Source of the DNA: a virus
Taxonomy: Duplodnaviria; Heunggongvirae; Uroviricota; Caudoviricetes
IMG/VR virus record: IMGVR_UViG_2585427754_000009
DNA: 41,687 bases
Direction: 5' to 3' (one strand)
Part shown: positions 13,836 through 40,512 of the stretch, one piece after another
How positions within the stretch are numbered: position 1 is the first letter of the stretch
Layout of the letters: each line of letters opens with the position of its first letter
Notes under the pieces: generated by a model
Database searches by the model: none
Seen by the model: the letters and a program-made list of their open reading frames with translations, nothing else
What the model was told of the DNA's origin: nothing
Position numbers and translations under genes: made by a program

Positions 13836-13883
13836 TTTCCCAACGATGGGCTTTGTATGTCTACCGTTGATAAGATTTAAGAC

Positions 13884-13906
13884 CCCGCCGCTGAGCGGGT
13901 TTTTTT
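13884..13906 (+). terminator. Intrinsic terminator tR'
   Basis: CCCGC-cgctga-GCGGG hairpin followed by T7; about 50 nt downstream of the pR' -10. Confidence 0.65.
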
Positions 13907-18507: not shown

Positions 18508-20237
18508 GCCGGAAATCTTACCCCAACGTAAATGCTGCAAATCAGTATGCCCGGGATGTCGTGCGCGGAAAGATTGTTGCCTGCCAGTTTGTGATTCAGG
18601 CCTGCCAGCGCCATCTTGATGACCTGATGGCGGAAAAAAGTAAGTCGTTTCGTTACCGCTTCGACAAGGACCTGGCTGAACGGGCCGCGAAATTTATTCA
18701 GCTGTTGCCGCACACCAAGGGGGAGTGGGCATTCAAACGGATGCCCATCACGCTGGAGCCGTGGCAGCTATTTGTGATCTGCTGTGCGTTTGGCTGGGTC
18801 AATAAAGGCACCCGGTTGCGCCGCTTCCGGGAGGTGTACACCGAAATCCCCCGTAAGAACGGCAAATCAGCAATCTCTGCCGGTGTTGCCCTGTATTGTT
18901 TTGCCTGTGATAACGAGTTTGGCGCGGAAGTGTATTCCGGTGCCACGACAGAGAAACAGGCGTGGGAAGTCTTTCGCCCGGCACGACTGATGTGTAAACG
19001 CACACCCATGCTGACGGAAGCGTTCGGGATTGAGGTTAACGCCTCAAACATGAACCGTCCGGAGGATGGCGCGCGGTTTGAACCGCTGATCGGCAACCCA
19101 GGTGATGGTTCATCACCCCACTGTGCCGTGGTTGATGAATATCACGAGCATGCCACCGATGCGCTTTATACCACAATGCTTACCGGGATGGGGGCGCGAC
19201 GTCAGCCACTGATGTGGGCCATTACTACTGCCGGGTACAACATTGAGGGGCCGTGCTACGACAAACGGCGGGAAGTTATCGAGATGCTCAACGGTTCGGT
19301 ACCCAACGATGAACTGTTCGGGATCATCTATACCGTTGACGAAGGTGACGACTGGACCAACCCACTGGTGCTGGAAAAAGCCAACCCGAATATCGGGGTG
19401 TCGGTTTACCGTGAGTTTTTGTTAAGTCAGCAACAGCGTGCGAAAAATAACGCCCGTCTGGCAAACGTCTTTAAAACAAAACACCTCAATATCTGGGTGT
19501 CGGCGCGTTCGGCGTATTTCAACCTGGTGAGCTGGCAGAGCTGCGAGGATAAATCACTGACTCTTGAGCAATTCGAGGGGCAGCCGTGCATTCTGGCCTT
19601 TGACCTGGCGCGTAAACTGGATATGAACAGCATGGCGCGACTTTATACCCGCGAGATTGACGGTAAAACGCATTACTACAGTGTGGCCCCGCGTTTCTGG
19701 GTACCGTATGACACGGTGTACAGCGTCGAGAAAAATGAAGATCGCCGGACAGCCGAACGCTTTCAGAAATGGGTGGAAATGGGCGTCCTGACCGTTACCG
19801 ATGGTGCAGAGGTGGATTATCGCTACATCCTCGAAGAGGCCAAAGCGGCGAACAAAATCAGCCCGGTCAGCGAGTCACCCATCGACCCCTTCGGGGCGAC
19901 CGGGCTGTCACATGACCTTGCTGATGAAGACCTGAATCCCGTCACTATCTTCCAGAACTTCACCAATATGTCCGATCCGATGAAAGAGCTGGAAGCAGCG
20001 ATTGAATCGGGACGTTTTCATCATGACGGCAATCCCATCATGACCTGGTGTATCGGCAACGTGGTCGGCAAAAACATGCCGGGTAACGATGATGTGGTGA
20101 AACCCGTCAAAGAGCAGGCGGAAAACAAAATTGACGGTGCAGTTGCGCTGATTATGGCGGTTGGCAGAGCCATGCTGTACGAGAAAGAAGACACGCTGTC
20201 TGATCACATTGAGTCCTACGGGATCCGCTCGCTTTAA
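18504..20237 (+). CDS. Terminase large subunit
   Basis: 577-aa ORF with ATPase region ([18 protein letters not shown]... Walker A-like) and C-terminal nuclease region; position after TerS. Confidence 0.9.
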
Positions 20238-25550: not shown

Positions 25551-25721
25551 ATGTTTGTCAAACCTGTTAAAGGGCGGTCAGTTCCTGACCCTGCCCGCGG
25601 CGACCTTTTGCCCGCCGAAGGGCGAAATGTTGACGAGAACAACTACTGGCTGCGCCGTGAAGCAGCGGGTGATATCCGGCGCGTGAATAAAAAGGTGAAC
25701 ACCGATGACGATAAGCTTTAA
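25551..25721 (+). CDS. Small conserved tail protein (DUF2635-like, 56 aa)
   Basis: ORF MFVKPVKGRSVPDPARGDLLPAEGRNVDENNYWLRREAAGDIRRV, hand-translated (below the 60-aa track cutoff). Overlaps the sheath start. Confidence 0.55.
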   Translation: MFVKPVKGRSVPDPARGDLLPAEGRNVDENNYWLRREAAGDIRRVNKKVNTDDDKL

Positions 25722-27201
25722 CACCATTCCGTCGAATACGCTGGTTCCGCTGTTTTATGCGGAAATGGATAACCAGGCGGCGAATACTGCACAGGACAGC
25801 GGAGCATCGCTGCTGATTGGTCATGCCAATAACGGTGCAGAGATTGTTGCCAACAGTCTGGTACTGATGTCGTCGGCAGACTATGCACGCCAGATTTGTG
25901 GTGCGGGAAGTCAGCTGGCGCGTATGGTCGAGGCTTATCGCCAGACCGACCCGTTTGGCGAGCTGTATGTGATTGCCGTTCCTGAATCCACAGGCGCGGC
26001 GGCAACGGTTACGCTGACGGTGACCGGGGCGGCAACCGAAACCGGCACGGTGAATGTCTATGTGGGACGTACCCGCGTGCAGGCTCCGGTGACCAACGGC
26101 GATAACGTCACGACGATTGCCAGCAGTATCAAAGATGCCATCAATGCCGTTCCGGCCCTGCCGTTTACGGCTTCATCTTCGGCAGGCGTGGTCACACTGA
26201 CCGCGCGTCATAAGGGGCTTTGCGGGAATGAAATTCCTGTCAGCCTCAATTACTACGGCTTTGGTGGGGGCGAAGTGCTGCCAGCGGGCGTACAGATTGC
26301 CGTGGCGACGGGTACCGCCGGAACGGGTGCTCCGGTTCTCACCGGCGCGGTGGCTGCAATGGCGGATGAGCCGTTTGATTATATCGGTCTGCCGTTCAAC
26401 GACACGGCCTCCGTTAACACGCTGGTGACCGAGATGAACGATACCAGCGGTCGCTGGAGCTATGCGCGTCAGCTGTATGGTCATGTGTATACGGCAAAGA
26501 TCGGCACGCTGTCAGAACTGGTGACCGCAGGTGACCAGTTTAACCAGCAGCACATTACCCTGGCGGGGTACGAAAAAGAGACCCAGACGCCTGCCGACGA
26601 ACTGGCGGCAAGCCGTACCGCCCGCGCAGCGGTGTTTATTCGCAACGATCCGGCACGTCCCACGCAGACCGGTGAGCTGGTGGATATGCTGCCTGCGCCG
26701 AAGGGGAAACGGTTCACGATGACCGAACAACAGACCCTGCTGTCTCATGGCGTGGCAACGGCGTATGTCGAAAGCGGGGTACTGCGCATTCAGCGTGATG
26801 TCACCACGTACAGGAAAAACGCTTACGGGGTTGCGGATAACAGCTACCTAGACAGTGAGACTCTGCATACCAGCGCGTATGTACTGCGCAAACTGAAATC
26901 CGTCATTACCAGTAAGTACGGGCGTCACAAGCTTGCCAGTGACGGTACCCGCTTTGGTCCCGGTCAGGCGATTGTCACCCCGGCGGTGATCAAAGGGGAA
27001 CTGCTGGCAACCTACCGTCAGCTTGAGCGTGCGGGGATCGTGGAAAACTACGAACTGTTTAAGCAGTACCTGGTTGTGGAGCGTGATGCCAGCGATCCGA
27101 ACCGCCTGAACACGCTGTTCCCGCCTGACTATGTTAACCAGTTGCGTGTCTTTGCCGTGGTTAACCAGTTCCGTCTTCAGTATTCAGAGGAGTCTGCATA
27201 A
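25705..27201 (+). CDS. Contractile tail sheath protein (Mu gpL-like)
   Basis: 498 aa; followed immediately by tube, chaperone pair and tape measure. Confidence 0.85.
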   Translation: MTISFNTIPSNTLVPLFYAEMDNQAANTAQDSGASLLIGHANNGAEIVANSLVLMSSADYARQICGAGSQLARMVEAYRQTDPFGELYVIAVPESTGAAATVTLTVTGAATETGTVNVYVGRTRVQAPVTNGDNVTTIASSIKDAINAVPALPFTASSSAGVVTLTARHKGLCGNEIPVSLNYYGFGGGEVLPAGVQIAVATGTAGTGAPVLTGAVAAMADEPFDYIGLPFNDTASVNTLVTEMNDTSGRWSYARQLYGHVYTAKIGTLSELVTAGDQFNQQHITLAGYEKETQTPADELAASRTARAAVFIRNDPARPTQTGELVDMLPAPKGKRFTMTEQQTLLSHGVATAYVESGVLRIQRDVTTYRKNAYGVADNSYLDSETLHTSAYVLRKLKSVITSKYGRHKLASDGTRFGPGQAIVTPAVIKGELLATYRQLERAGIVENYELFKQYLVVERDASDPNRLNTLFPPDYVNQLRVFAVVNQFRLQYSEESA

Positions 27202-27557
27202 TGGCCCGTATCGGGGGAACCTGTTATTTCAAAATTGACGGTCAACAGCTATCGCTGACCGGCGGCATTGAGGTGCCCATGAACAGGACGGTCAATGATG
27301 ACATCATCGGCCTGGACGGTTCAGTGGACCGCAAGGAAACTCACCGTGCGCCTTATGTCAAAGGGACTTTCAAGGTGCCGAAGAATTTTCCGGTGAACAA
27401 AATCACCTCGTCTGATGAGATGACCATCACTGCCGAGCTGGCGAACGGTCAGGTCTATGTACTGTCGTCTGCCTGGCTGCACGGCGAAGCGAACCATAAT
27501 GCCGAAGAAGGTACGGTTGATCTTGAGTTCCACGGTGAAGAAGGGGATTACCAGTAA
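27201..27557 (+). CDS. Tail tube protein (Mu gpM-like)
   Basis: 118 aa; TAATG coupling to the sheath gene. Confidence 0.8.
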   Translation: MARIGGTCYFKIDGQQLSLTGGIEVPMNRTVNDDIIGLDGSVDRKETHRAPYVKGTFKVPKNFPVNKITSSDEMTITAELANGQVYVLSSAWLHGEANHNAEEGTVDLEFHGEEGDYQ

Positions 27558-27826
27558 TGAAAGAGCTTGAGTTAAAGAAACCGATTACTGCTCATGGCGA
27601 GACACTCTCCGTACTGGAGTTTGATGAGCCCACCGGGAAGGATGTCCGCGAGCTGGGGTATCCCTACCAGATGAATCAGGATGAGTCAGTCAAACTTCTG
27701 GCGCATGTGGTGTCGAAATACATTGTGCGGCTGGCGAAAGTGCCGCAAAGCTCTGTCGACCAGATGTCTCCGGCAGACCTGAATGCAGCGGCGTGGCTTG
27801 TGGCTGGGTTTTTTCTCCAGGCCTGA
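27557..27826 (+). CDS. Tail assembly chaperone (short form)
   Basis: 89-aa ORF between tube and tape measure; ends at a G3T6 slippery run. Confidence 0.7.
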   Translation: MKELELKKPITAHGETLSVLEFDEPTGKDVRELGYPYQMNQDESVKLLAHVVSKYIVRLAKVPQSSVDQMSPADLNAAAWLVAGFFLQA

Positions 27827-27975
27827 CGGCTGAATACCTCACTGATCGCTTCTTTGACTTCGCCAGCTACTGGCGCATTAATCCTTTCGAATTGCTGAAT
27901 ATGCCGATCAGTGAAATTCCCTTACTGGTCAGTCAGGCAAACAGGATAGAGCAGGAGAAACGCACACATGGCTGA
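27793..27975 (+). CDS. -1 frame extension of the tail assembly chaperone (frameshift product)
   Basis: ORF in the -1 frame overlapping the chaperone 3' end across GGGTTTTTT (27806-27814) and ending as the tape measure begins. Confidence 0.55.
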   Translation: MACGWVFSPGLTAEYLTDRFFDFASYWRINPFELLNMPISEIPLLVSQANRIEQEKRTHG

Positions 27976-29800
27976 ATTTGAGCTTAAGGCGTTGATCACC
28001 GGTGTCGACAGGCTTTCTCCCGCGCTGTCGAAAATGCAAAAGAAAATCCGGGGATTTAAACGCCAGGCGGAAGAAGCGTCACAGGGTGGGCTGGCGCTTG
28101 GTGGCGGACTGGCAGCGGGTCTGACGCTTTCCCTGAAATCTTATGCCGATCAGGAAAACGCCGCCACCGGGCTGAAAGTCGCCATGATGGATGCGAACGG
28201 CGAGGTTGGAAAGAGCTTTCAGGACATCAATAAACTGGCTATTGGCCTGGGTAACCAGCTACCTGGTACAACGGCTGATTTCCAGAACATGATGCAGATG
28301 CTGGTGCGTCAGGGGATCCCGGCAGAAAACATTCTGGGTGGTGTGGGTAAAGCGACAGCTTATCTTGCGGTACAACTGAAAAAAACACCGGAAGCGGCTG
28401 CTGAGTTTGCTGCAAAGATGCAGGATGCTACCGGAACGGCGTCAGAAGACATGATGGGGCTGTTCGACACTATCCAGAAGGCGTTTTATCTGGGCGTTGA
28501 CGATACCAACATGTTGTCCTTCTTCACTAAAACCAGTTCTGTTCTGAAGATGGTGAACAAGGATGGTCTTCAGGCTGCACAGAGCCTTGCCCCCATCAGC
28601 GTCATGATGGATCAGATGGGGATGAACGGGGAGTCGGCAGGTAATGCCCTGCGAAAAGTTATCCAGTCCGGATTAAGCGTTAAGAAAATCAGGGACGTTA
28701 ATAAAGTTATGGCCCGCCAGAAACTCGGGATACAGCTCGATTTTACTGACGGCAAAGGAAGTTTTGGCGGTCTTGATAACATGTTCAGGCAACTGGCAAA
28801 GCTGCGAAAACTGACCGACGTTAAGCGAACAGGTGTACTTAAGGCAATATTTGGTGATGATGCCGAAACCCTTCAGGTGGTCAATGCACTAATCGATAAA
28901 GGAAAGGATGGCTACGATCAGATCCAGCAGAAGATGAATAAACAGGCCAGCCTGAATAAACGTGTTCAGGCACAGCTTGGTACGCTGTCCAACCTGTGGG
29001 AGGCAATGACAGGGACCGCAACTAACGGCCTTGCGGCTATTGGCGGCGCATTTTCTGGTGACGCTAAAAATATCACACAATGGCTGGGGGAGTTGGGGGA
29101 GAAATTCACGAAGTTTGCGGATGAAAATCCCCGGGTTATTCGCGGCGTCGTCGGGCTTGCTGCCGGTCTTGCGATTCTGAAACTGGGATTGATGGGCGTG
29201 GGCAGTGCCATCAGTATTGTCAGCAGGATTATGTCGATGACGCCGATTGGCATGATTGCGACGGCGATTGCTCTGGCTGCGGGATTAATTATCACTAACT
29301 GGGATGTTGTCGGACCTTATTTCAAGAAGCTCTGGGAAACCATTGGTCCTTATTTTGAGGCAGGTTGGGAACTTCTGAAGAAGGTTTTTGCCTGGTCGCC
29401 GCTGGGGATGGTGATCAATAACTGGGGACCGGTTGTTAAGTGGTTTCAGGATATGTGGGATAAGCTGAAGCCGATTATTGAATGGTTTACCGACAGTTCC
29501 GGTGACACGGTCGATGCCATTAACTCGGCGCAGTGGGGCGCGGGTGCTTATGATGCTTATGGGACGGGAATACCGCCACGGGGATACACTCCTTATCCGG
29601 TGGTGGATCCGGCTCAGGCAAACAACGCCTCCGATGCCACAGGCTCGAATCCCTTTATGATTAACAAAGCTATCGCGCCAAAAGTTGATGGCGAGATCAA
29701 GGTTTCATTTATGAATATGCCACCAGGTATGCGGGTTACGGAAACACGTTCCAGTGGCATTGATATTAATCACGATGTTGGGTACACCAGATTTAGGTAA
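27968..29800 (+). CDS. Tail tape measure protein
   Basis: 610 aa, Ala/Gly-rich helical protein with C-terminal hydrophobic/Trp-rich region; canonical position. Confidence 0.85.
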   Translation: MAEFELKALITGVDRLSPALSKMQKKIRGFKRQAEEASQGGLALGGGLAAGLTLSLKSYADQENAATGLKVAMMDANGEVGKSFQDINKLAIGLGNQLPGTTADFQNMMQMLVRQGIPAENILGGVGKATAYLAVQLKKTPEAAAEFAAKMQDATGTASEDMMGLFDTIQKAFYLGVDDTNMLSFFTKTSSVLKMVNKDGLQAAQSLAPISVMMDQMGMNGESAGNALRKVIQSGLSVKKIRDVNKVMARQKLGIQLDFTDGKGSFGGLDNMFRQLAKLRKLTDVKRTGVLKAIFGDDAETLQVVNALIDKGKDGYDQIQQKMNKQASLNKRVQAQLGTLSNLWEAMTGTATNGLAAIGGAFSGDAKNITQWLGELGEKFTKFADENPRVIRGVVGLAAGLAILKLGLMGVGSAISIVSRIMSMTPIGMIATAIALAAGLIITNWDVVGPYFKKLWETIGPYFEAGWELLKKVFAWSPLGMVINNWGPVVKWFQDMWDKLKPIIEWFTDSSGDTVDAINSAQWGAGAYDAYGTGIPPRGYTPYPVVDPAQANNASDATGSNPFMINKAIAPKVDGEIKVSFMNMPPGMRVTETRSSGIDINHDVGYTRFR

Positions 29801-29832: not shown

Positions 29833-30279
29833 TTACTGTGCGAACACGCAATTTCGGCCTGATGGGGAGCCGACAATTCTGGACATTTTTTCGCAAATAA
29901 CAGTTACTTGTTCTCCTTTTTTAAGAGCAGCAGCTGTTGATTTTTCAGAGTCTTGCATCTCCATTCTTGCTGGCATGAATTCATTTTCAGTTCTGAATTT
30001 AATAATTATAGAGTCAGTAAAGTCCTTATCAATGGATTGTACGATACCTCTAACGGCGATTAATTTACCTTTTAACTGTTCATCGGTAGCGACTTCATTT
30101 TCTTCATACTCTTTAAACAGCTGTCGAGCAGTAGTGTTGTAGATTTCTTTTTGCGGTGCCGCAGCTTCCGTATCGGATGAGTATGAAGAATTAGAGCCTT
30201 TATCGTTATTGCCTGCAAAATATCCAATAATCACCAACCCGATGAAAATATATAAAATCCATTTTAATAATTTCTTCAT
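29833..30279 (-). CDS. Hypothetical signal-anchored protein (148 aa) on a reverse-oriented AT-rich moron
   Basis: AAGGTGA RBS. N-terminal hydrophobic anchor (LLKWILYIFIGLVIIGYFAG) then a Ser-rich linker and a small beta-rich domain. Only minus-strand gene inside the plus-strand tail operon. AT-rich. Confidence 0.6.
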   Translation of the reverse strand: MKKLLKWILYIFIGLVIIGYFAGNNDKGSNSSYSSDTEAAAPQKEIYNTTARQLFKEYEENEVATDEQLKGKLIAVRGIVQSIDKDFTDSIIIKFRTENEFMPARMEMQDSEKSTAAALKKGEQVTVICEKMSRIVGSPSGRNCVFAQ

Positions 30280-35390: not shown

Positions 35391-36116
35391 ATGCATCGTA
35401 TAGACACGAAAACCGCGCAGAAGGATAAGTTCGGCGCGGGTAAGAACGGTTTTACCCGTGGTAACCCCCAGACAGGCACGCCTGCCACCGATCTGGATGA
35501 TGACTACTTTGACATGTTGCAGGAGGAGCTTTGCAGCGTGGTGGAGGCATCCGGTGCCAGCCTGGAGAAGGGGCGGCACGACCAGTTGCTTACCGCGCTT
35601 CGTGCGCTGCTGTTAAGCCGCAAGAATCCGTTTGGCGATATCAAATCGGATGGCACGGTGAAAACGGCTCTCGAAAACCTTGGTTTGGGAGAAGGCTCAG
35701 CATTACCTGTTGGGGTGCCTGTTCCGTGGCCTTCAGCCACTCCGCCAACAGGCTGGTTGAAATGCAATGGTGCGGCTTTTTCTGCTGAAGAATACCCGGA
35801 ACTGGCAAAGGCTTACCCGACAAATAAATTGCCTGATTTACGCGGTGAATTTATTCGTGGATGGGATGATGGGCGCGGGGTGGATTCCTCTCGTGGTTTG
35901 TTGACATCTCAAGACCATTTATTTGCTTCTCATGGGCACTGGTTTGACAAGTACTATGCGCTAACAGGTTTTGATCCAACGGGAGGTCGGTTCGTAGTTA
36001 CGGCTGATGCTTTCGGGGAACTTATTACGGCAAATTCAATTTCTACGGTATCGGTTGGTGGTTCTGAAACCCGGCCGCGCAACGTCGCATTTAACTATAT
36101 CGTGAGGGCAGCCTGA
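35391..36116 (+). CDS. Tail fibre protein (constant N-terminus joined to the currently expressed variable C-terminus)
   Basis: GGAG RBS. 241 aa. Recombination crossover site lies in codons 93-101. C-terminal collar-like motif [19 protein letters not shown]. Confidence 0.8.
35668..35693. repeat. Invertase crossover site (gix/pix-like), left
   Basis: CTCTCGAAAACCTTGGTTTGGGAGAA; the last 14 bp are a perfect inverted repeat of 37514-37527. Confidence 0.75.
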
Positions 36117-36718
36117 TGAATAAAGCCGTATTAAATAGCGAACTCATTACTACAAAGGCAGGAAACATTACCGTTTATAATTTTGATGCTGAGACGAAGG
36201 AATATCTTTCCACATCAACCGAATATCTTGTTGTGGGTGTCGGTATTCCGGCGTATTCCTGTTTAGATGCTCCTGGTACATATAAGGCTGGTTATACTAT
36301 CTGCCGTTCAGCAGATTTAAAATCATGGGAATATATGCCAGACCATCGCGGTGAAATCGTTTTTAGCACCGAAACAGGGGAATCAAAAGAAATCACAGCT
36401 CCGGGTGATTACCCTGATAATACAACCACTATCGCCCCGTTAACGCCATACGATAAATGGGATGGTGAGAAATGGGTGACGGATACCGAGGCACAGCACG
36501 GCGCAGCAGTAGATGCAGCAGAAGCACAGCGCCAGTCGCTGATTGATACTGCAATGGCCTCCATCAGTCTGATTCAGCTGAAATTGCAGGCCGGACGTAA
36601 ACTGACGCAGGCAGAAACAACCCGCCTTAACGCTGTGCTGGATTACATTGACGCGGTGACGGCAACAGATACCAGCACCGCGCCGGATGTCATCTGGCCT
36701 GAACTGTCGGAGGCGTAG
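36116..36718 (+). CDS. Tail fibre assembly chaperone (Tfa)
   Basis: 200 aa. The C-terminal third (ALTPYDKWDGEKWVTDTEAQ...DVIWPELSEA) is homologous to the C-terminus of the convergent minus-strand Tfa. Confidence 0.8.
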   Translation: MNKAVLNSELITTKAGNITVYNFDAETKEYLSTSTEYLVVGVGIPAYSCLDAPGTYKAGYTICRSADLKSWEYMPDHRGEIVFSTETGESKEITAPGDYPDNTTTIAPLTPYDKWDGEKWVTDTEAQHGAAVDAAEAQRQSLIDTAMASISLIQLKLQAGRKLTQAETTRLNAVLDYIDAVTATDTSTAPDVIWPELSEA

Positions 36719-37133
36719 GCCATTCAATATCTGGCGCACCGGAAGTATCGACCAGCTCCAGTGCGTCCAGATAATCCAGCCACAAATTATATTGCGCCAG
36801 TTCGTCACCTTTCAGACGACCAATAGCGGCTTTACCGGGCCATTGTTTACTGTTCATGTATTCGTTGGCCTGGTTAATTAATAGCTGTCTTTCTGATTCA
36901 GTAATTTCAATAAGCTCTTCATGCGTGGGTGGAGGAATATCTGCCCACGCAGGCAGCCCATCATTTCCGGCAATACGGATCTTTCCTTGTGGCGGTTCAG
37001 CCATAAACTCACTGATAATATTTTGATTCACTTCCTTAGCATCTGATAAATCCCATCCCTCTGATTTATATTTATCAATCATATCCACAGGGAAAAAAGC
37101 ATTATGCCTTGCGCTATAAACATATTCGTTCAT
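36690..37133 (-). CDS. Alternative tail fibre assembly chaperone (Tfa')
   Basis: ATG at 37131-37133 with AGGGTGA RBS. Product MNEYVYSARHNAFFP...DIEWPTPPTVQAR typical of the Tfa family. Convergent with tfa, 29-bp overlap. Confidence 0.8.
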   Translation of the reverse strand: MNEYVYSARHNAFFPVDMIDKYKSEGWDLSDAKEVNQNIISEFMAEPPQGKIRIAGNDGLPAWADIPPPTHEELIEITESERQLLINQANEYMNSKQWPGKAAIGRLKGDELAQYNLWLDYLDALELVDTSGAPDIEWPTPPTVQAR

Positions 37134-37153
37134 ATAAATCACCCTGAATAAAA

Positions 37154-37513
37154 TTACTCACCAACAGCCCACCAACTGTAATTCATCGATACCGTGTCGC
37201 TGGTTGATGACGTTCTGTAAGCAGAATTAAAGCCGGTTAACGTTGGGCCTTCTGCAGTCATCACGAACCCTCGCCCAGCGCCTAAAGGCGCACCGCCATC
37301 ACCAGAATGAGTAAGCATGGCGCAGTCCGCTTTTTTGGGGAAAGGGATGCTGAATGTAATTCTCATTGTTTGCGTCGATAATGTCGGCGTAACCGCACCA
37401 CGACCATATTGCAGGATTTTCCCGTTGGGTAATTTCATCCATCCATCACCACTGGCAAAAGAGGCCATGTCCGGTATCTGATTTTCCCCTGTCCCCACAT
37501 CCCGTTTTGCCGC
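37154..37513 (-). other. Silent alternative tail-fibre C-terminal coding segment
   Basis: Open frame without its own start codon; it begins inside the crossover site in the same codon phase (GLGE) as the expressed fibre gene, so inversion would fuse it in frame to the constant N-terminus. Confidence 0.75.
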
Positions 37514-37539
37514 TTCTCCCAAACCAACGTTTATGAAAA
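37514..37539. repeat. Invertase crossover site (gix/pix-like), right
   Basis: TTCTCCCAAACCAACGTTTATGAAAA; inverted copy of the left site; lies just upstream of the invertase remnant. Confidence 0.75.
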
Positions 37540-37593
37540 TGCAGAAATAACGAGCAAATGGCATCATTCCTGCTTTTGTCAGGGGGAGCTACC

Positions 37594-37817: not shown

Positions 37818-39707
37818 TTAATCGTGTTTTGGCCATACTTTCAATGCAATTTCCCCCAACTTTTTACCCCGCTCCAGGATTTCATCCTCATCCCATTTAT
37901 CCTTAACTATAAGTGGAATGTTCAGTCGTAGATTGGTGTGGACGATGAGAGCATCACGTTTTTTCAGAAATACAGCATTCTGAACAGAACGGTTTACGCT
38001 AAGGTTAAGCAAAGTTAGATTTCCCAACGTAGCTATCGCTTGTTGCCGTTTCCTTACCAGTAGCTGTTCAGGGGTAAGATCGGTTCCAGACAGAACAATT
38101 TGGTTCAATACCGTAGCATCTGAATTTGTCACCATATGACCATTTTCGAGAGGCCAACAGGAATACCAACTTTGAGGCATAAGATGATCGATATCGAGGT
38201 TAGAAAGATTTGGAACATCAGGCTTCTCTGTCTTCACTTGGCGACAAAGTTCTCTTTCAAGTTCCGTTAACATTGAGCGCATTTTCGGTGCGTCGAGCCT
38301 GCCAGGATAAAGTGGAGCATTGATGCAAGCGTTGAGAAATTCTGAGTCCCCAGGCCAACGTGAGGCTTCGCCATTTAAGCTATTGAGGATATTACGTAAC
38401 TCAACACTGGAAATTTCCGTTTTAGACAAGTGCCGCAATACATTCATAAATACATTGTTGTAATTCTTTGGCGTCAGGCCACATACGGCTCTTCGTACTA
38501 CGTAGGAGACAAGATCATTATACATGGCTGCTTTCTCATCATCGGCGATGTTAGCTATCGAAATGAACAAAGCAAGCGGATAAAGTGTCGTCACATCATA
38601 GGCTGCGATGCGATGTCCAAAGTGTGAGATGGGGGTTGTGCCAAAACCACCAACCAATTCTTTATATTGTGATGCATATTGTTTGAGGCGCTTTACTTGC
38701 AGATCTGCTCGTTGTGAAGGCAAGTCCTTACTTACATAATCACGATACTCATTGTAAAGACGAGACAGATCGATTTCACGTTGCCTTTCTGATTGCAATG
38801 TCGCATGCACTAGCCACTCCATGCGTGGTTTATTAATACGACCACGACGTTGTCTTTCTGACCAGTACGTATCTTCAAAGATCTTCCACTCATTCTCATA
38901 TAATTCAACAGCATTAATATTTTCATGTTCAGCGCACATAAAAATATAATTGCGAATAAGATCTGTGGCATGAAGTTCCGCACCTCTGCCATTTAATGTT
39001 TCAAAAATTATTTGAGCGTCATCTTCAGCCTCGAGAAATATGCTTACTAGTTTCAGATCCGTCAAGACAGCCTCAATTAATGCTACAGCATTTTCTCGTG
39101 GTGAGTGATTTTCTATTTTAATCCACTTTATAAAGGCTTCAGTAAAAAAACATAATGCTTCTAGTGATGGCGGGTGATTAAAATGCTTACGCAACGTACC
39201 ATGCTGCGTGAAACTATCAGAGAATACATTCCGGATATCGTCAATATTTTCAACATTAAAACTTTGAATAAAATGAGTTTGATCCCGAAAAGTTGGCCAC
39301 AGTTTGAAGCGCTCTACTTCTTTATTTCGCATTGTGTCTTCGTTTGAGTTTTTCAGGCAAGACGAAATGAGAGGCTCTAAGTTGGAAAGATCTGTCGCAC
39401 GTAATGCTAATCGGATGGATGCCAGAACATATTGAAGAGTGGTCAATCGTTGCTGACCATCAATAATATGTATGGAATCTACACCTAATAATCCTTTTTT
39501 TGGTTGAGGTTCCAGTACCACTGCACCAAGGAAATGGGGAGTTGGTTTTGTACCCGAGAGCCGGGATTGTGCTTTCTCTAGGATATCCTCCAGTAGAGCT
39601 GACCATTGGTTTCGCTGAGTCCATACATAGGCACGTTGATAGAATGGAACGCAGTATTGTCGGCGGTCTTGAAAAAGTTGTTGGACAGTTAGCGTCTCGG
39701 ATTTCAT
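37818..39707 (-). CDS. GmrSD-family type IV restriction endonuclease (DUF262 + DUF1524)
   Basis: N-terminal DUF262 motifs (VPFYQRAYVW and IIDGQQRLTTL). C-terminal DUF1524 His-Me finger region (DIDHLMPQSW...LGNLTLLNLSVNRSV). Start at MKSETLTVQQ (39705-39707) preferred over 39767. AT-rich island. Confidence 0.8.
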   Translation of the reverse strand: MKSETLTVQQLFQDRRQYCVPFYQRAYVWTQRNQWSALLEDILEKAQSRLSGTKPTPHFLGAVVLEPQPKKGLLGVDSIHIIDGQQRLTTLQYVLASIRLALRATDLSNLEPLISSCLKNSNEDTMRNKEVERFKLWPTFRDQTHFIQSFNVENIDDIRNVFSDSFTQHGTLRKHFNHPPSLEALCFFTEAFIKWIKIENHSPRENAVALIEAVLTDLKLVSIFLEAEDDAQIIFETLNGRGAELHATDLIRNYIFMCAEHENINAVELYENEWKIFEDTYWSERQRRGRINKPRMEWLVHATLQSERQREIDLSRLYNEYRDYVSKDLPSQRADLQVKRLKQYASQYKELVGGFGTTPISHFGHRIAAYDVTTLYPLALFISIANIADDEKAAMYNDLVSYVVRRAVCGLTPKNYNNVFMNVLRHLSKTEISSVELRNILNSLNGEASRWPGDSEFLNACINAPLYPGRLDAPKMRSMLTELERELCRQVKTEKPDVPNLSNLDIDHLMPQSWYSCWPLENGHMVTNSDATVLNQIVLSGTDLTPEQLLVRKRQQAIATLGNLTLLNLSVNRSVQNAVFLKKRDALIVHTNLRLNIPLIVKDKWDEDEILERGKKLGEIALKVWPKHD

Positions 39708-40512
39708 GGTATACCTGTAAGCGACATTGTACAAAAGTGAGGAGTTAATCTGATTTAGAACAATCATTTTATGTTGCTATGATACAACGTATTTGTTACC
39801 GGTTAAGTAAAAAACGCGTCTGAACGCTGACGTTTTAGGGCTTTACTAGTTATTCTTTCTTATCTCTTCATCATCCCATCGGCATCCTGTCGAGGTTGTT
39901 GACTTGTTGTTATTTATTTTGTTTAGGCGCTGTTTAATTATTATTGATGGGACTGGTGGTGAGAGGTGATTGAAACCGCAGACAGGTCGTATGCAAGACG
40001 TGCTGCGGTTGGCTGGTAAATGTTAGATAGTGCGAGTATTGAATGATTTCTAGCCGTTATTGATTTTACGTATTTTTGTATGAGAGGATTTGCATCTCCT
40101 GCCACCGACCCTCCATGACTTTACGCCACTGTCTCTAGGGCTGCTATGTGCCAGGAGCAGCCATTGCTAAGTCCATCCTGTATTGTGCAGGTCAGCTCGT
40201 TTTTAAAGAGTCCGGCCATCATCTTACTGGTACAGACACCATATACTTTGTGACGGTCAGGCTACATATGCACAACTCAACTTATTCATCTATTTTTTGC
40301 TTTAGCATGTCAGTGTTGCTTTCTCGTCGGCGGGTGAGCGGTGACCTGACCTGTCGATAAAGGAACGTAGCACGTTTTATGCAACACCCGCATGCGGCAG
40401 AAAATTATTGCCGAACGTTTACCCCTGTCAACAAGCTTTACTTTCTGAGGCGCGCCAGCCCGCGAGGAAAACAATCTGAACATCAAACAATTAATGACAC
40501 AAGAAATACGAT

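What the first reader, a model, noticed from the sequence alone, without database searches (positions are those of the whole stretch)
27793..27826. Likely programmed -1 frameshift in the tail assembly chaperone at GGGTTTTTT
The chaperone ORF ends 10 nt after a G3T6 run (27806-27814). A -1 frame ORF overlaps this run and extends to the tape measure start, giving the conserved short/long chaperone pair. The heptamer is not the canonical XXXYYYZ in the zero frame, so the exact slip site needs confirmation.
Basis: partly seen in the sequence, partly recalled or inferred. Interest (0 to 1): 0.4.

Follow-up and report, generated by a model that had tools for sequence, protein, structure and literature searches.

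The report
Tail chaperone frameshift, off-register slip site
This is the well-known programmed -1 ribosomal frameshift that makes a short and a long tail-assembly chaperone in an SfV-like E. coli prophage, but this copy carries a rare, weakened version of the slippery sequence that every relative examined keeps in canonical form.

Summary
The 89-aa chaperone ORF (27557-27826) ends 10 nt after GGGTTTTTT (27806-27814). The -1 frame stays open to 27975 and overlaps the tape-measure ATG (27968) by 8 nt.

The short ORF is PF10109 (P2 gpE / Mu gp41 family). In relatives, substitutions fit frame 0 before the T-run and frame -1 after it. In 13 of 23 relatives the -1 frame has no start codon in the overlap. 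P2's annotated slip site (GGT TTT TTG) lies at the homologous position.

In 28 of 28 distinct family ORFs the site reads NNT TTT TTN, a canonical T_TTT_TTY/G heptamer. The window reads GGG TTT TTT (G_TTT_TTT, 27808-27814), so only the T_TTT tetramer (27811-27814) allows perfect re-pairing. The predicted junction is ...AGFF|SPGL..., giving a 139-aa fusion.

The window allele is absent from 5,426 complete E. coli genomes, where the canonical 38-mer occurs at 951 places. It occurs once in IMG/VR. Against the nearest genome (YF-1), 3 of the 6 differences over 25 kb fall within 53 nt of this cassette. All three are silent in the short form.

Published E. coli data suggest lower frameshift efficiency here; I did not measure it. 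The mechanism is known, the allele is unusual, and interest is modest.

The parts
25705..27201 (+). Tail sheath gene (498 aa), first gene of the sheath-tube-chaperone-tape measure block
   Evidence: PF04984, PF17482 and PF17481 match, and phrog_165 matches at E 1.6e-231.
27201..27557 (+). Tail tube gene (118 aa). Its stop overlaps the chaperone start (TAATG).
   Evidence: PF10618 at E 3e-33 and phrog_185; sequence read.
27557..27826 (+). Short tail assembly chaperone (89 aa, gpE-like), the product of normal frame-0 translation
   Evidence: PF10109 Phage_TAC_7 scores 61.1 bits against a cut-off of 25, covering residues 4-86. The protein is identical to the one annotated 'phage tail assembly protein' WP_000661050.1 in strains MB15 and YF-1, because both slip-site changes are synonymous.
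27808..27814 (+). Predicted slip site G_TTT_TTT: P-site UUU shifts to GUU (first-base mismatch) and A-site UUU shifts to UUU (perfect). It contains the only Z_ZZN tetramer of the overlap, T_TTT at 27811-27814.
   Evidence: The homologous position in 28 of 28 distinct family ORFs is NNT TTT TTN. P2's annotated frameshift site is GGT TTT TTG.
27814..27975 (+). The -1 frame extension (53 aa, SPGLTAEYLTDRFFDFASYWRINPFELLNMPISEIPLLVSQANRIEQEKRTHG). Joined to 27557-27814 it gives a 139-aa fusion.
   Evidence: phrog_32181 at E 2.6e-38. Codon differences among relatives are 705 synonymous to 640 non-synonymous in frame -1, against 103/1260 in frame 0 and 126/1211 in frame +1. The sequence is conserved in 23 species-level loci and 5 phages.
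27968..29800 (+). Tape measure protein gene (610 aa). Its start overlaps the end of the extension by 8 nt, the same geometry as P2 E'/T.
   Evidence: PF10145, and phrog_28 and phrog_17727; P2 comparison.
27859..27877 (+). Distal hairpin TTCGCCAG-CTA-CTGGCGCA. It has 8 bp in relatives and 6 bp here because of 27860 G>T, which also changes Cys to Phe at fusion residue 102. Probably incidental to the coding sequence.
   Evidence: It lies 44 nt after the slip site, is broken in L096, L098 and L101, and has a consensus fold energy of only -3.6 kcal/mol.

Best explanation
The window is an SfV-like myovirus prophage. Its tail genes run sheath, tube, chaperone, tape measure. Most ribosomes translate the chaperone gene 27557-27826 in frame 0 and release an 89-aa protein. 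A minority slip back one base while the two Phe codons UUU UUU (27809-27814) occupy the P and A sites. They then read UCU CCA GGC... in the -1 frame to the stop at 27973-27975. The result is a 139-aa protein with the same N-terminal 86 residues and a new 53-residue C-terminus (junction ...LVAGFF|SPGLTAEY...).

By analogy with lambda G/GT and P2 E/E+E', the shared part binds the tape measure protein and the extension recruits the tube protein. The slip frequency fixes the ratio of the two products, and neither ends up in the virion.

In this copy the slippery sequence is G_UUU_UUU rather than the family's U_UUU_UUC. The A-site tRNA-Phe re-pairs perfectly, but the P-site tRNA-Phe meets GUU. Alternatively, a single P-site tRNA on the second UUU slips while the CUC codon waits in the A site. 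Both routes give the same protein. No stimulatory RNA structure or internal Shine-Dalgarno sequence is evident. The frameshift frequency is therefore probably lower than in relatives.

Shown here: the ORF geometry, family membership, the frame switch in the substitution pattern, conservation of the site, and the rarity of this allele. Inferred: that slipping occurs in this allele, its rate, and the roles of the two proteins.
For: - **Identity of the element.** It is 98.8% identical to phage SfV over 27201-28100, and Pfam/PHROG assign the four tail genes.
- **-1 ORF geometry.** The geometry is shown.
- **Conserved site.** All 23 genome loci from different species (40-99% aa identity), SfV, SfIV, ST64B, phiP27, AH07, BgVeeders33 and P2 have a T6/T7 run starting at codon position 3, and a -1 ORF running 92-152 nt past the frame-0 stop to the tape-measure start. 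The synonymous positions are fixed: 28 of 28 have NNT and TTT, while elsewhere in the same ORFs third-position T is 23%, GGT is 31% of Gly codons and TTT is 47% of Phe codons.
- **Frame switch.** The substitution pattern switches from frame 0 to frame -1 at the run.
- **No independent start.** In 13 of 23 loci the -1 frame has no ATG/GTG/TTG in the overlap.
- **Two-frame alignment.** tblastn of the fusion aligns in two pieces across the SfI, SfII, SfV, SfIV, ST64B, phiP27 and related phage records listed with two pieces.
- **P2 comparison.** P2 E+E' is annotated as a -1 frameshift join at GGT TTT TTG. PF10109 ends at the slip in both proteins (residues 85 and 86), and E'/T overlap by 8 nt as here. 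PMC3091744 gives P2 E as 91 aa, E+E' as 142 aa, and TTTTTTG as the site.
- **Only candidate site.** T_TTT at 27811 is the only tetramer in the -1-open region.
- **Published motif data.** U_UU.U is one of the three best tetramers in E. coli, and U_UU.U_UU.Y heptamers are among the most efficient (PMC4066793).
- **Conserved mechanism.** The G-T type frameshift is widely conserved among long-tailed dsDNA phages (PMC5009743).
Against: - The window's heptamer is not canonical. The X base that is T in every relative is G here.
- In Sharma et al. 2014, Z_ZZN tetramers without a stimulator were barely above background (0.147% against 0.112%), and G_YY.N was used as the non-shifty control for tetramers.
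- No stimulator was found. The single-sequence fold has z = +0.44, and the consensus fold is -3.6 kcal/mol with only 4 distal pairs.
- The allele is absent from 5,426 complete E. coli genomes and occurs once in IMG/VR. It may therefore be mildly deleterious or an error.
- No protein or ribosome-profiling data exist for this sequence.
Confidence: 0.8

Rival explanations
1. The frameshift cassette in this prophage copy is crippled. The T>G change at the X position, the C>T change at the Z position and the Cys>Phe change in the extension mean the long form is made at too low a level, or is defective. The copy would then be on its way to being tail-defective (relaxed selection or inactivation), even though the ancestral element used the frameshift.
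For: X = T is invariant in 28 of 28 family ORFs. The canonical allele is at 951 places in complete E. coli genomes against 0 for this allele. Three of the 6 differences from strain YF-1 over 25.1 kb lie in 53 nt of the cassette (simulated p = 2.5e-4). All three spare the short protein and affect only the slip site or the fusion (P87S, C102F). 27860T is found nowhere else. The published hierarchy puts tetramers about 10-fold below heptamers, and U_UU.C above U_UU.U.
Against: The -1 frame is still open with no stop, and a perfect A-site re-pairing tetramer remains. The same slip allele occurs in a second contig on a 97.9%-identical background, so it is carried in more than one lineage. Distant relatives have I, V, T or L at the Cys position, so Phe may be tolerated. 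The rest of the tail module is nearly identical to YF-1 and intact. Lambda needs only a few per cent of the long form (PMC5009743).
Confidence: 0.2
2. The unusual allele is a sequencing or assembly artefact at the G-run/T-run/C-run boundaries (true sequence GGTTTTTTCC), so the locus is simply the canonical SfV site.
For: The change keeps the length (G2T6C2 to G3T6C1) and sits in adjacent homopolymers. It is absent from 880 complete genomes that carry the gene. Two IMG/VR contigs show a length error-like variant, G3T6C2. Singleton fused proteins exist in databases (P0001-P0003).
Against: An artefact would need two compensating run-length errors. The identical allele is present in an independent public contig on a different background. 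The single-substitution intermediate GGG TTT TTC exists in 4 contigs. The third nearby difference (27860) is not in a homopolymer.
Confidence: 0.1
3. The long form arises by transcriptional slippage of RNA polymerase on the T6 run (one U fewer in some mRNAs) rather than by ribosomal slippage.
For: A homopolymeric T-run is the only conserved element, and no RNA stimulator is present. U7 and A7 are avoided in E. coli genes in all frames, possibly because of slippage (PMC4066793).
Against: The run is only 6-7 nt. From my own knowledge, efficient E. coli RNA polymerase slippage needs about 8-9 or more. The reading-frame register of the run is fixed in 28 of 28 relatives. That is expected for tandem tRNA slippage and irrelevant for polymerase slippage. 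The P2 site at the same position is annotated as a translational frameshift.
Confidence: 0.05
4. The 60-codon ORF 27793-27975 is an independent small gene started at GTG 27793, as annotated ('hypothetical protein') in phage vB_EcoM-689R6.
For: A GTG exists at 27793, and one GenBank record annotates the ORF separately.
Against: There is no Shine-Dalgarno sequence upstream (ACCTGAATGCAGCGGC). In 13 of 23 relatives the -1 frame has no start codon in the overlap, and in several it opens only 37-46 nt before the frame-0 stop. The -1 frame upstream of the T-run shows no coding signal (151 synonymous to 2538 non-synonymous).
Confidence: 0.03

Closest known systems
Bacteriophage P2 gpE / gpE+E' (FETUD operon; -1 frameshift at T_TTT_TTG)
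   Same: Both belong to Pfam family PF10109, and the domain ends at the slip site in both. The sizes match (89/139 aa here, 91/142 aa in P2). The slip codons are at the homologous position (GGT TTT TTN, encoding G-F-F/L). No downstream RNA structure is present in either. The extension overlaps the tape-measure start by 8 nt, and the gene order is sheath, tube, chaperone, tape measure.
   Different: Pairwise sequence similarity is not significant (BLASTP E = 0.82 for the best segment, and 21% identity at E = 2.0 for the colinear alignment). The extension is not PF06528 (P2 GpE) but phrog_32181. In this window the heptamer is G_TTT_TTT, so the P-site tRNA cannot re-pair perfectly.
Phage SfV orf13 / tape measure orf14 and the SfI, SfII, ST64B, phiP27 group
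   Same: SfV is 98.8% identical in nucleotides, with the same ORFs and the same -1 extension.
   Different: SfV and all other members carry the canonical GGT TTT TTC or NNT TTT TTT. None of the records I opened annotates the frameshift.
Phage lambda gpG / gpGT
   Same: The logic is the same: a low-frequency -1 shift near the end of the chaperone gene sets a fixed ratio of short to long form, just upstream of the tape-measure gene (PMC5009743).
   Different: I did not compare the lambda proteins with this one, so homology is untested. Lambda is a siphovirus. From my own knowledge its slippery sequence is G_GGA_AAG. The published ratio is about 30:1.
Phage Mu gp41 (-2 frameshift)
   Same: The Pfam family name covers Mu gp41, and the tail module is Mu-like (sheath gpL-like, DNA circularisation protein).
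   Different: Mu is reported to use a -2 shift into the +1 frame (PMC2628397; PMC5009743). Here the +1 frame closes after 7 nt.

Membership tests
Frameshifted tail assembly chaperone pair (lambda G/GT type; Xu, Hendrix & Duda 2004) | The gene lies between the major tail/tube gene and the tape measure gene | tested here: met
   Tube is 27201-27557 (PF10618), chaperone 27557-27826, and tape measure 27968-29800 (PF10145).
Frameshifted tail assembly chaperone pair (lambda G/GT type; Xu, Hendrix & Duda 2004) | A second ORF in another frame overlaps the 3' end of the first, lacks its own start, and runs to about the tape-measure start | tested here: met
   The -1 frame is open from 27685 to 27975. 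There is no Shine-Dalgarno sequence before the only GTG. In 13 of 23 relatives the -1 frame has no start codon in the overlap.
Frameshifted tail assembly chaperone pair (lambda G/GT type; Xu, Hendrix & Duda 2004) | A canonical slippery heptamer X_XXY_YYZ in frame 0 within the overlap | tested here: not met
   The window has G_TTT_TTT. No canonical heptamer exists in the ORF; only the tetramer T_TTT at 27811 is present. The feature is met in 28 of 28 distinct relatives. The window is therefore a degenerate allele of a canonical site.
Frameshifted tail assembly chaperone pair (lambda G/GT type; Xu, Hendrix & Duda 2004) | Purifying selection switches from frame 0 to the shifted frame at the slip site | tested here: met
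   Synonymous to non-synonymous codon differences are 1778/875 in frame 0 upstream and 705/640 in frame -1 downstream. The other frames give 103-220 synonymous against more than 1200 non-synonymous.
Frameshifted tail assembly chaperone pair (lambda G/GT type; Xu, Hendrix & Duda 2004) | Both the short and the fused protein are made, in a fixed ratio, and both are needed for tail assembly | not testable with these tools
   This needs a western blot, mass spectrometry or a reporter assay.
Pfam PF10109 Phage_TAC_7 (P2 gpE, Mu gp41) | HMM match above the gathering threshold | tested here: met
   61.1 bits against a cut-off of 25, E 1e-16, residues 4-86 matching profile positions 2-78 of 79. P2 E+E' scores 47.5 bits over residues 7-85.
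Pfam PF06528 Phage_P2_GpE (the E' extension of P2) | HMM match of the -1 extension | tested here: not met
   No match at E up to 1. The extension matches phrog_32181 instead.
Mu-type -2 (+1 frame) chaperone frameshift | An extension open in the +1 frame up to the tape measure gene | tested here: not met
   The +1 frame stops 7 nt after the frame-0 stop.
Transcriptional slippage sites | A long A/T homopolymer (about 8-9 nt or more in E. coli, from my own knowledge) whose register relative to the reading frame is free | tested here: not met
   The run is 6 nt here and 6-7 nt in the family. The register is fixed at codon position 3 in 28 of 28 relatives.

The most novel reading that the evidence does not exclude
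The window carries a natural down-mutant of a strictly conserved slippery heptamer. Three private or rare substitutions are clustered in 53 nt. All are silent for the short chaperone, and all hit the slip site or the frameshift-only domain. If the prophage is still tail-proficient, a bare U_UUU tetramer with a mismatched P-site codon and no stimulator is enough for tail assembly. It could also mean that selection is re-tuning or switching off the long form. The GGG TTT TTC, GGG TTT TTT and in-frame G3T6C2 alleles would then be steps of one evolutionary series.
Probability: 0.2. Interest if true: 0.45.

Novelty: already known. Interest (0 to 1): 0.25.

Why it matters
The frameshift itself is textbook phage biology. 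Its main practical consequence is annotation: none of the SfV-group phage records or the two E. coli RefSeq regions I opened annotates the 139-aa product. The canonical site occurs at 951 places in 880 complete E. coli genomes.

The window-specific allele gives a cheap natural test of how much P-site re-pairing matters at a stimulator-free bacterial -1 site, and of how little long-form chaperone a contractile tail needs. Comparing GGT TTT TTC, GGG TTT TTC and GGG TTT TTT in one reporter would answer both questions.

Tried and rejected
- **Downstream stimulator.** The single-sequence fold of 27806-27900 has z = +0.44. RNAalifold on 20 relatives gives -3.6 kcal/mol and only a 4-bp distal hairpin explained by conserved codons. 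Rejected.
- **Upstream Shine-Dalgarno-like stimulator.** None is visible by eye in GCGTGGCTTGTGGCTGG. GGAGG-like strings appear only sporadically in relatives. Not conserved.
- **Other slip sites in the ORF.** None found.
- **+1/-2 frameshift as in Mu.** The +1 frame is closed.
- **Independent initiation.** Rejected.
- **Solved structures.** A PDB sequence search with the fusion found no hit at E up to 1.
- **Papers.** The primary papers of Xu et al. 2004, Christie et al. 2002 and the SfV genome paper are not held in the library. Whether SfV was explicitly listed by Xu et al. could not be checked.
- **Metagenome scan.** A scan for the GGG alleles found nothing.
- **Motif count.** The count of GGGTTTTTT in the window is not significant by itself.
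- **Not run.** I ran no structure prediction or fold search. They would not bear on the frameshift question.

Full report

Yes. Frame-0 codons at the end of the 89-aa ORF 27557-27826 read GCT GGG TTT TTT CTC CAG GCC TGA. GGG is 27806-27808, the T6 run is 27809-27814, and the stop is 27824-27826. The -1 frame is open from 27685 and ends at TGA 27973-27975. The ORF tool lists it from its first GTG, 27793-27975, as 60 codons. The next gene, 27968-29800, starts inside ATGGCTGA, so the extension overlaps it by 8 nt. The +1 frame closes 7 nt after the frame-0 stop.

The motif count alone is not remarkable. There are two GGGTTTTTT in the window against 0.62 expected, and 10 of 100 shuffles have at least two. 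The other copy is a terminator tail at 13897.

**2. What is the locus?**

Region 27201-28100 is 98.8% identical to Shigella phage SfV, and similar sequence occurs in 1,086 of 5,426 complete E. coli genomes.

Pfam and PHROGs give the following gene order:
- sheath, 25705-27201
- tube, 27201-27557
- chaperone, 27557-27826 (PF10109 'Phage tail assembly chaperone proteins, E, or 41 or 14', 61 bits against a cut-off of 25)
- tape measure, 27968-29800 (PF10145)
- DNA-circularisation protein

The 53-aa -1 extension matches phrog_32181 (E 3e-38), a family of unknown function.

None of the phage or RefSeq records I opened annotates a frameshift here. One phage record annotates the -1 ORF as a separate hypothetical protein.

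**3. Comparative evidence for a -1 frameshift**

I fetched 23 loci from different species (40-99% aa identity to the short form). I added five phages (SfIV, ST64B, phiP27, AH07, BgVeeders33), SfV and P2.

- Every locus has a -1 ORF running 92-152 nt past the frame-0 stop to the tape-measure start. The +1 extension is short and variable.
- In 13 of the 23 genome loci the -1 frame has no ATG, GTG or TTG in the overlap. In several loci the -1 frame opens only 37-46 nt before the frame-0 stop.
- Eleven colinear sequences were compared codon by codon. Upstream of the T-run, differences fit frame 0 (1778 synonymous to 875 non-synonymous, against 151/2538 in frame -1). Downstream of the frame-0 stop they fit frame -1 (705/640, against 103/1260 and 126/1211).
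- The coding frame therefore changes at the T-run, which is the signature of a fusion made by frameshifting rather than a separate gene.
- tblastn of the predicted 139-aa fusion aligns in two pieces in the SfV, ST64B and phiP27 group of phages.

**4. Link to an experimentally established case**

P2 E (91 aa) and E+E' (142 aa) are annotated in NC_001895 as a -1 frameshift join at 19685. The site is described as TTTTTTG in PMC3091744.

The P2 codons there are GTC GGT TTT TTG, encoding V-G-F-L. The family consensus here is GCN GGT TTT TTC, encoding A-G-F-F. PF10109 ends at residue 85 in P2 and residue 86 in the window protein, so the slip sites are positionally homologous. In both phages the extension overlaps the tape-measure start by 8 nt.

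Pairwise BLASTP is not significant: E = 0.82 for the best segment, and E = 2.0 with 21% identity for the colinear alignment. The window extension is not PF06528, the P2 E' family. Membership therefore holds for the chaperone domain and the mechanism, not for the extension family.

**5. The exact slip site, and what is unusual**

In 28 of 28 distinct family ORFs the T-run starts at codon position 3: NNT TTT TTN. This gives T_TTT_TTC in 20 ORFs, T_TTT_TTT in 7, and T_TTT_TTG in P2. The synonymous positions are fixed. Elsewhere in the same ORFs, third-position T is 23%, GGT is 31% of Gly codons, and TTT is 47% of Phe codons.

The window instead reads GGG TTT TTT, the same run shifted one base in register. 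It contains no canonical heptamer. The only Z_ZZN tetramer within the -1-open region is T_TTT at 27811-27814.

A -1 slip with UUU UUU in the P and A sites gives perfect A-site re-pairing and a first-base mismatch (GUU) in the P site. A single P-site tRNA slipping on the second UUU gives the same product. The predicted fusion is residues 1-86 followed by SPGLTAEY... (139 aa). Relatives have Pro rather than Ser at position 87.

**6. How rare is the allele?**

| Collection | Result |
|---|---|
| Complete E. coli genomes, canonical 38-mer | 951 places in 880 genomes |
| Complete E. coli genomes, window-allele 38-mer | none |
| Complete E. coli genomes, intermediate GGG TTT TTC | none |
| IMG/VR, sample of 120 matching stretches | 118 canonical |
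| IMG/VR, whole-collection scan for GGG variants | 7 contigs |
| Metagenome scan for GGG variants | nothing |

The 7 IMG/VR contigs comprise 1 with the window allele, 4 with GGG TTT TTC, and 2 with G3T6C2. The contig with the window allele sits on a background only 97.9% identical to the window. In G3T6C2 an extra base fuses the two ORFs in frame.

The nearest genome, E. coli YF-1, differs from the window at only 6 positions across 16578-41687. Three of these are 27808 (T>G), 27814 (C>T) and 27860 (G>T). Under a uniform model, three of six changes fall within 53 nt with simulated p = 2.5e-4; this test is post hoc.

All three changes leave the short protein unchanged. They affect the slip site or the fusion only (P87S, C102F). 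27860T was found nowhere else. It replaces a Cys conserved in most close relatives, although distant relatives have I, V, T or L there. It also shortens a distal hairpin from 8 to 6 bp.

**7. Stimulators**

None was found. The fold of 27806-27900 is no better than shuffles (z = +0.44). The consensus fold of 20 relatives is -3.6 kcal/mol, with only four pairs in a hairpin 44 nt downstream that is broken in three relatives. This matches the reported absence of structure at the P2 site.

**8. Expected efficiency (inference from the literature)**

The data come from E. coli (Sharma et al. 2014, PMC4066793):
- H_HH.U_UU.Y heptamers are among the most efficient motifs.
- The tetramer ranking is A_AA.G >> U_UU.C > U_UU.U.
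- Tetramers reach about one tenth of the best heptamers.
- Without a stimulator, tetramers are barely above background (0.147% against 0.112%).

Both slip-site substitutions are therefore predicted to lower the frameshift rate. Lambda works with about 1 long form per 30 short forms, and P2 with 2- to 3-fold more frameshifting than lambda (PMC5009743). How far this can drop before tail assembly fails is unknown.

**9. Rivals**

- **Crippled or decaying cassette (0.2).** This fits the rarity and clustering. It is not required, because the frame is open and the tetramer remains.
- **Sequencing artefact (0.1).** This needs two compensating run-length errors. It is weakened by an independent contig with the same allele and by the existence of the single-substitution intermediate.
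- **Transcriptional slippage (0.05).** This is disfavoured by the short run and the fixed register.
- **Independent initiation (0.03).** This is disfavoured.

**10. Verdict**

This is the known tail-chaperone -1 frameshift of the P2 gpE / SfV group. The only non-routine point is that this copy has a rare, off-register and probably weaker slip site, plus a private change in the frameshift-only domain. Novelty: already known. Interest: 0.25.

Noticed in passing
L230:8650-8673 and L231:5023-5046 (IMG/VR UViG_2585427747_000001 and UViG_2585427730_000011); proteins P0001-P0003: Two contigs read GGG TTT TTT CCT, one base more than normal. The chaperone and its extension are then fused in frame (417 nt) and no short form is encoded. 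Three singleton database proteins of 137-139 aa are similar fusions. These may be real constitutive-fusion mutants or homopolymer errors.
   Followed up: partly
window 27859-27877: Relatives have a perfect 8-bp hairpin, TGCGCCAG-CTA-CTGGCGCA, inside the extension coding sequence (residues C-A-S-Y-W-R). The window's private G>T at 27860 removes two of its pairs. The hairpin lies 44 nt after the slip site and shows no covariation, so it is probably a by-product of the conserved codons.
   Followed up: partly
window 16578-41687 compared with L232 (E. coli YF-1, NZ_CP161809.1): Only 6 differences occur in 25.1 kb, and 3 of them lie within 53 nt of the frameshift cassette (27808, 27814, 27860). Left of about 13,900 the two prophages are much more divergent or unrelated, so the element is mosaic.
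   Followed up: partly
window 29833-30279 (- strand): A 148-aa ORF with a tRNA_anti-like OB-fold domain (PF12869) lies on the opposite strand between the tape measure and DNA-circularisation genes. It has its own promoter-like site (30032-30005, 11 of 12 matches) and a terminator-like hairpin (29829-29808). It looks like a moron inserted in the tail operon.
   Followed up: partly
window 37818-39767 (- strand): A 649-aa GmrSD-type type IV restriction endonuclease (PF03235 plus PF07510) sits at the prophage end. It is a likely prophage-carried defence gene.
   Followed up: no
window 36116-37567: Two tail-fibre assembly genes (Caudo_TAP) face each other (36116-36718 on +, 36690-37142 on -), next to a reverse-strand tail-fibre C-terminal fragment (37154-37567). 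A recombinase remnant is annotated just beyond in YF-1. The layout resembles a Mu Gin-type invertible host-range segment that may be frozen.
   Followed up: no
window 13880-13906: CCCGCCGCTGAGCGGGTTTTTTT is a typical intrinsic terminator. It accounts for the only other GGGTTTTTT in the window.
   Followed up: partly
L099:1743-1785 and L100 (uncultured proteobacterium MAGs): These distant relatives have a T7 slip run followed 3 nt later by a strong hairpin, GGGCTCG-GCGG-CGAGCCC. Some branches of the family may therefore use a downstream stimulator, although the SfV group does not.
   Followed up: no
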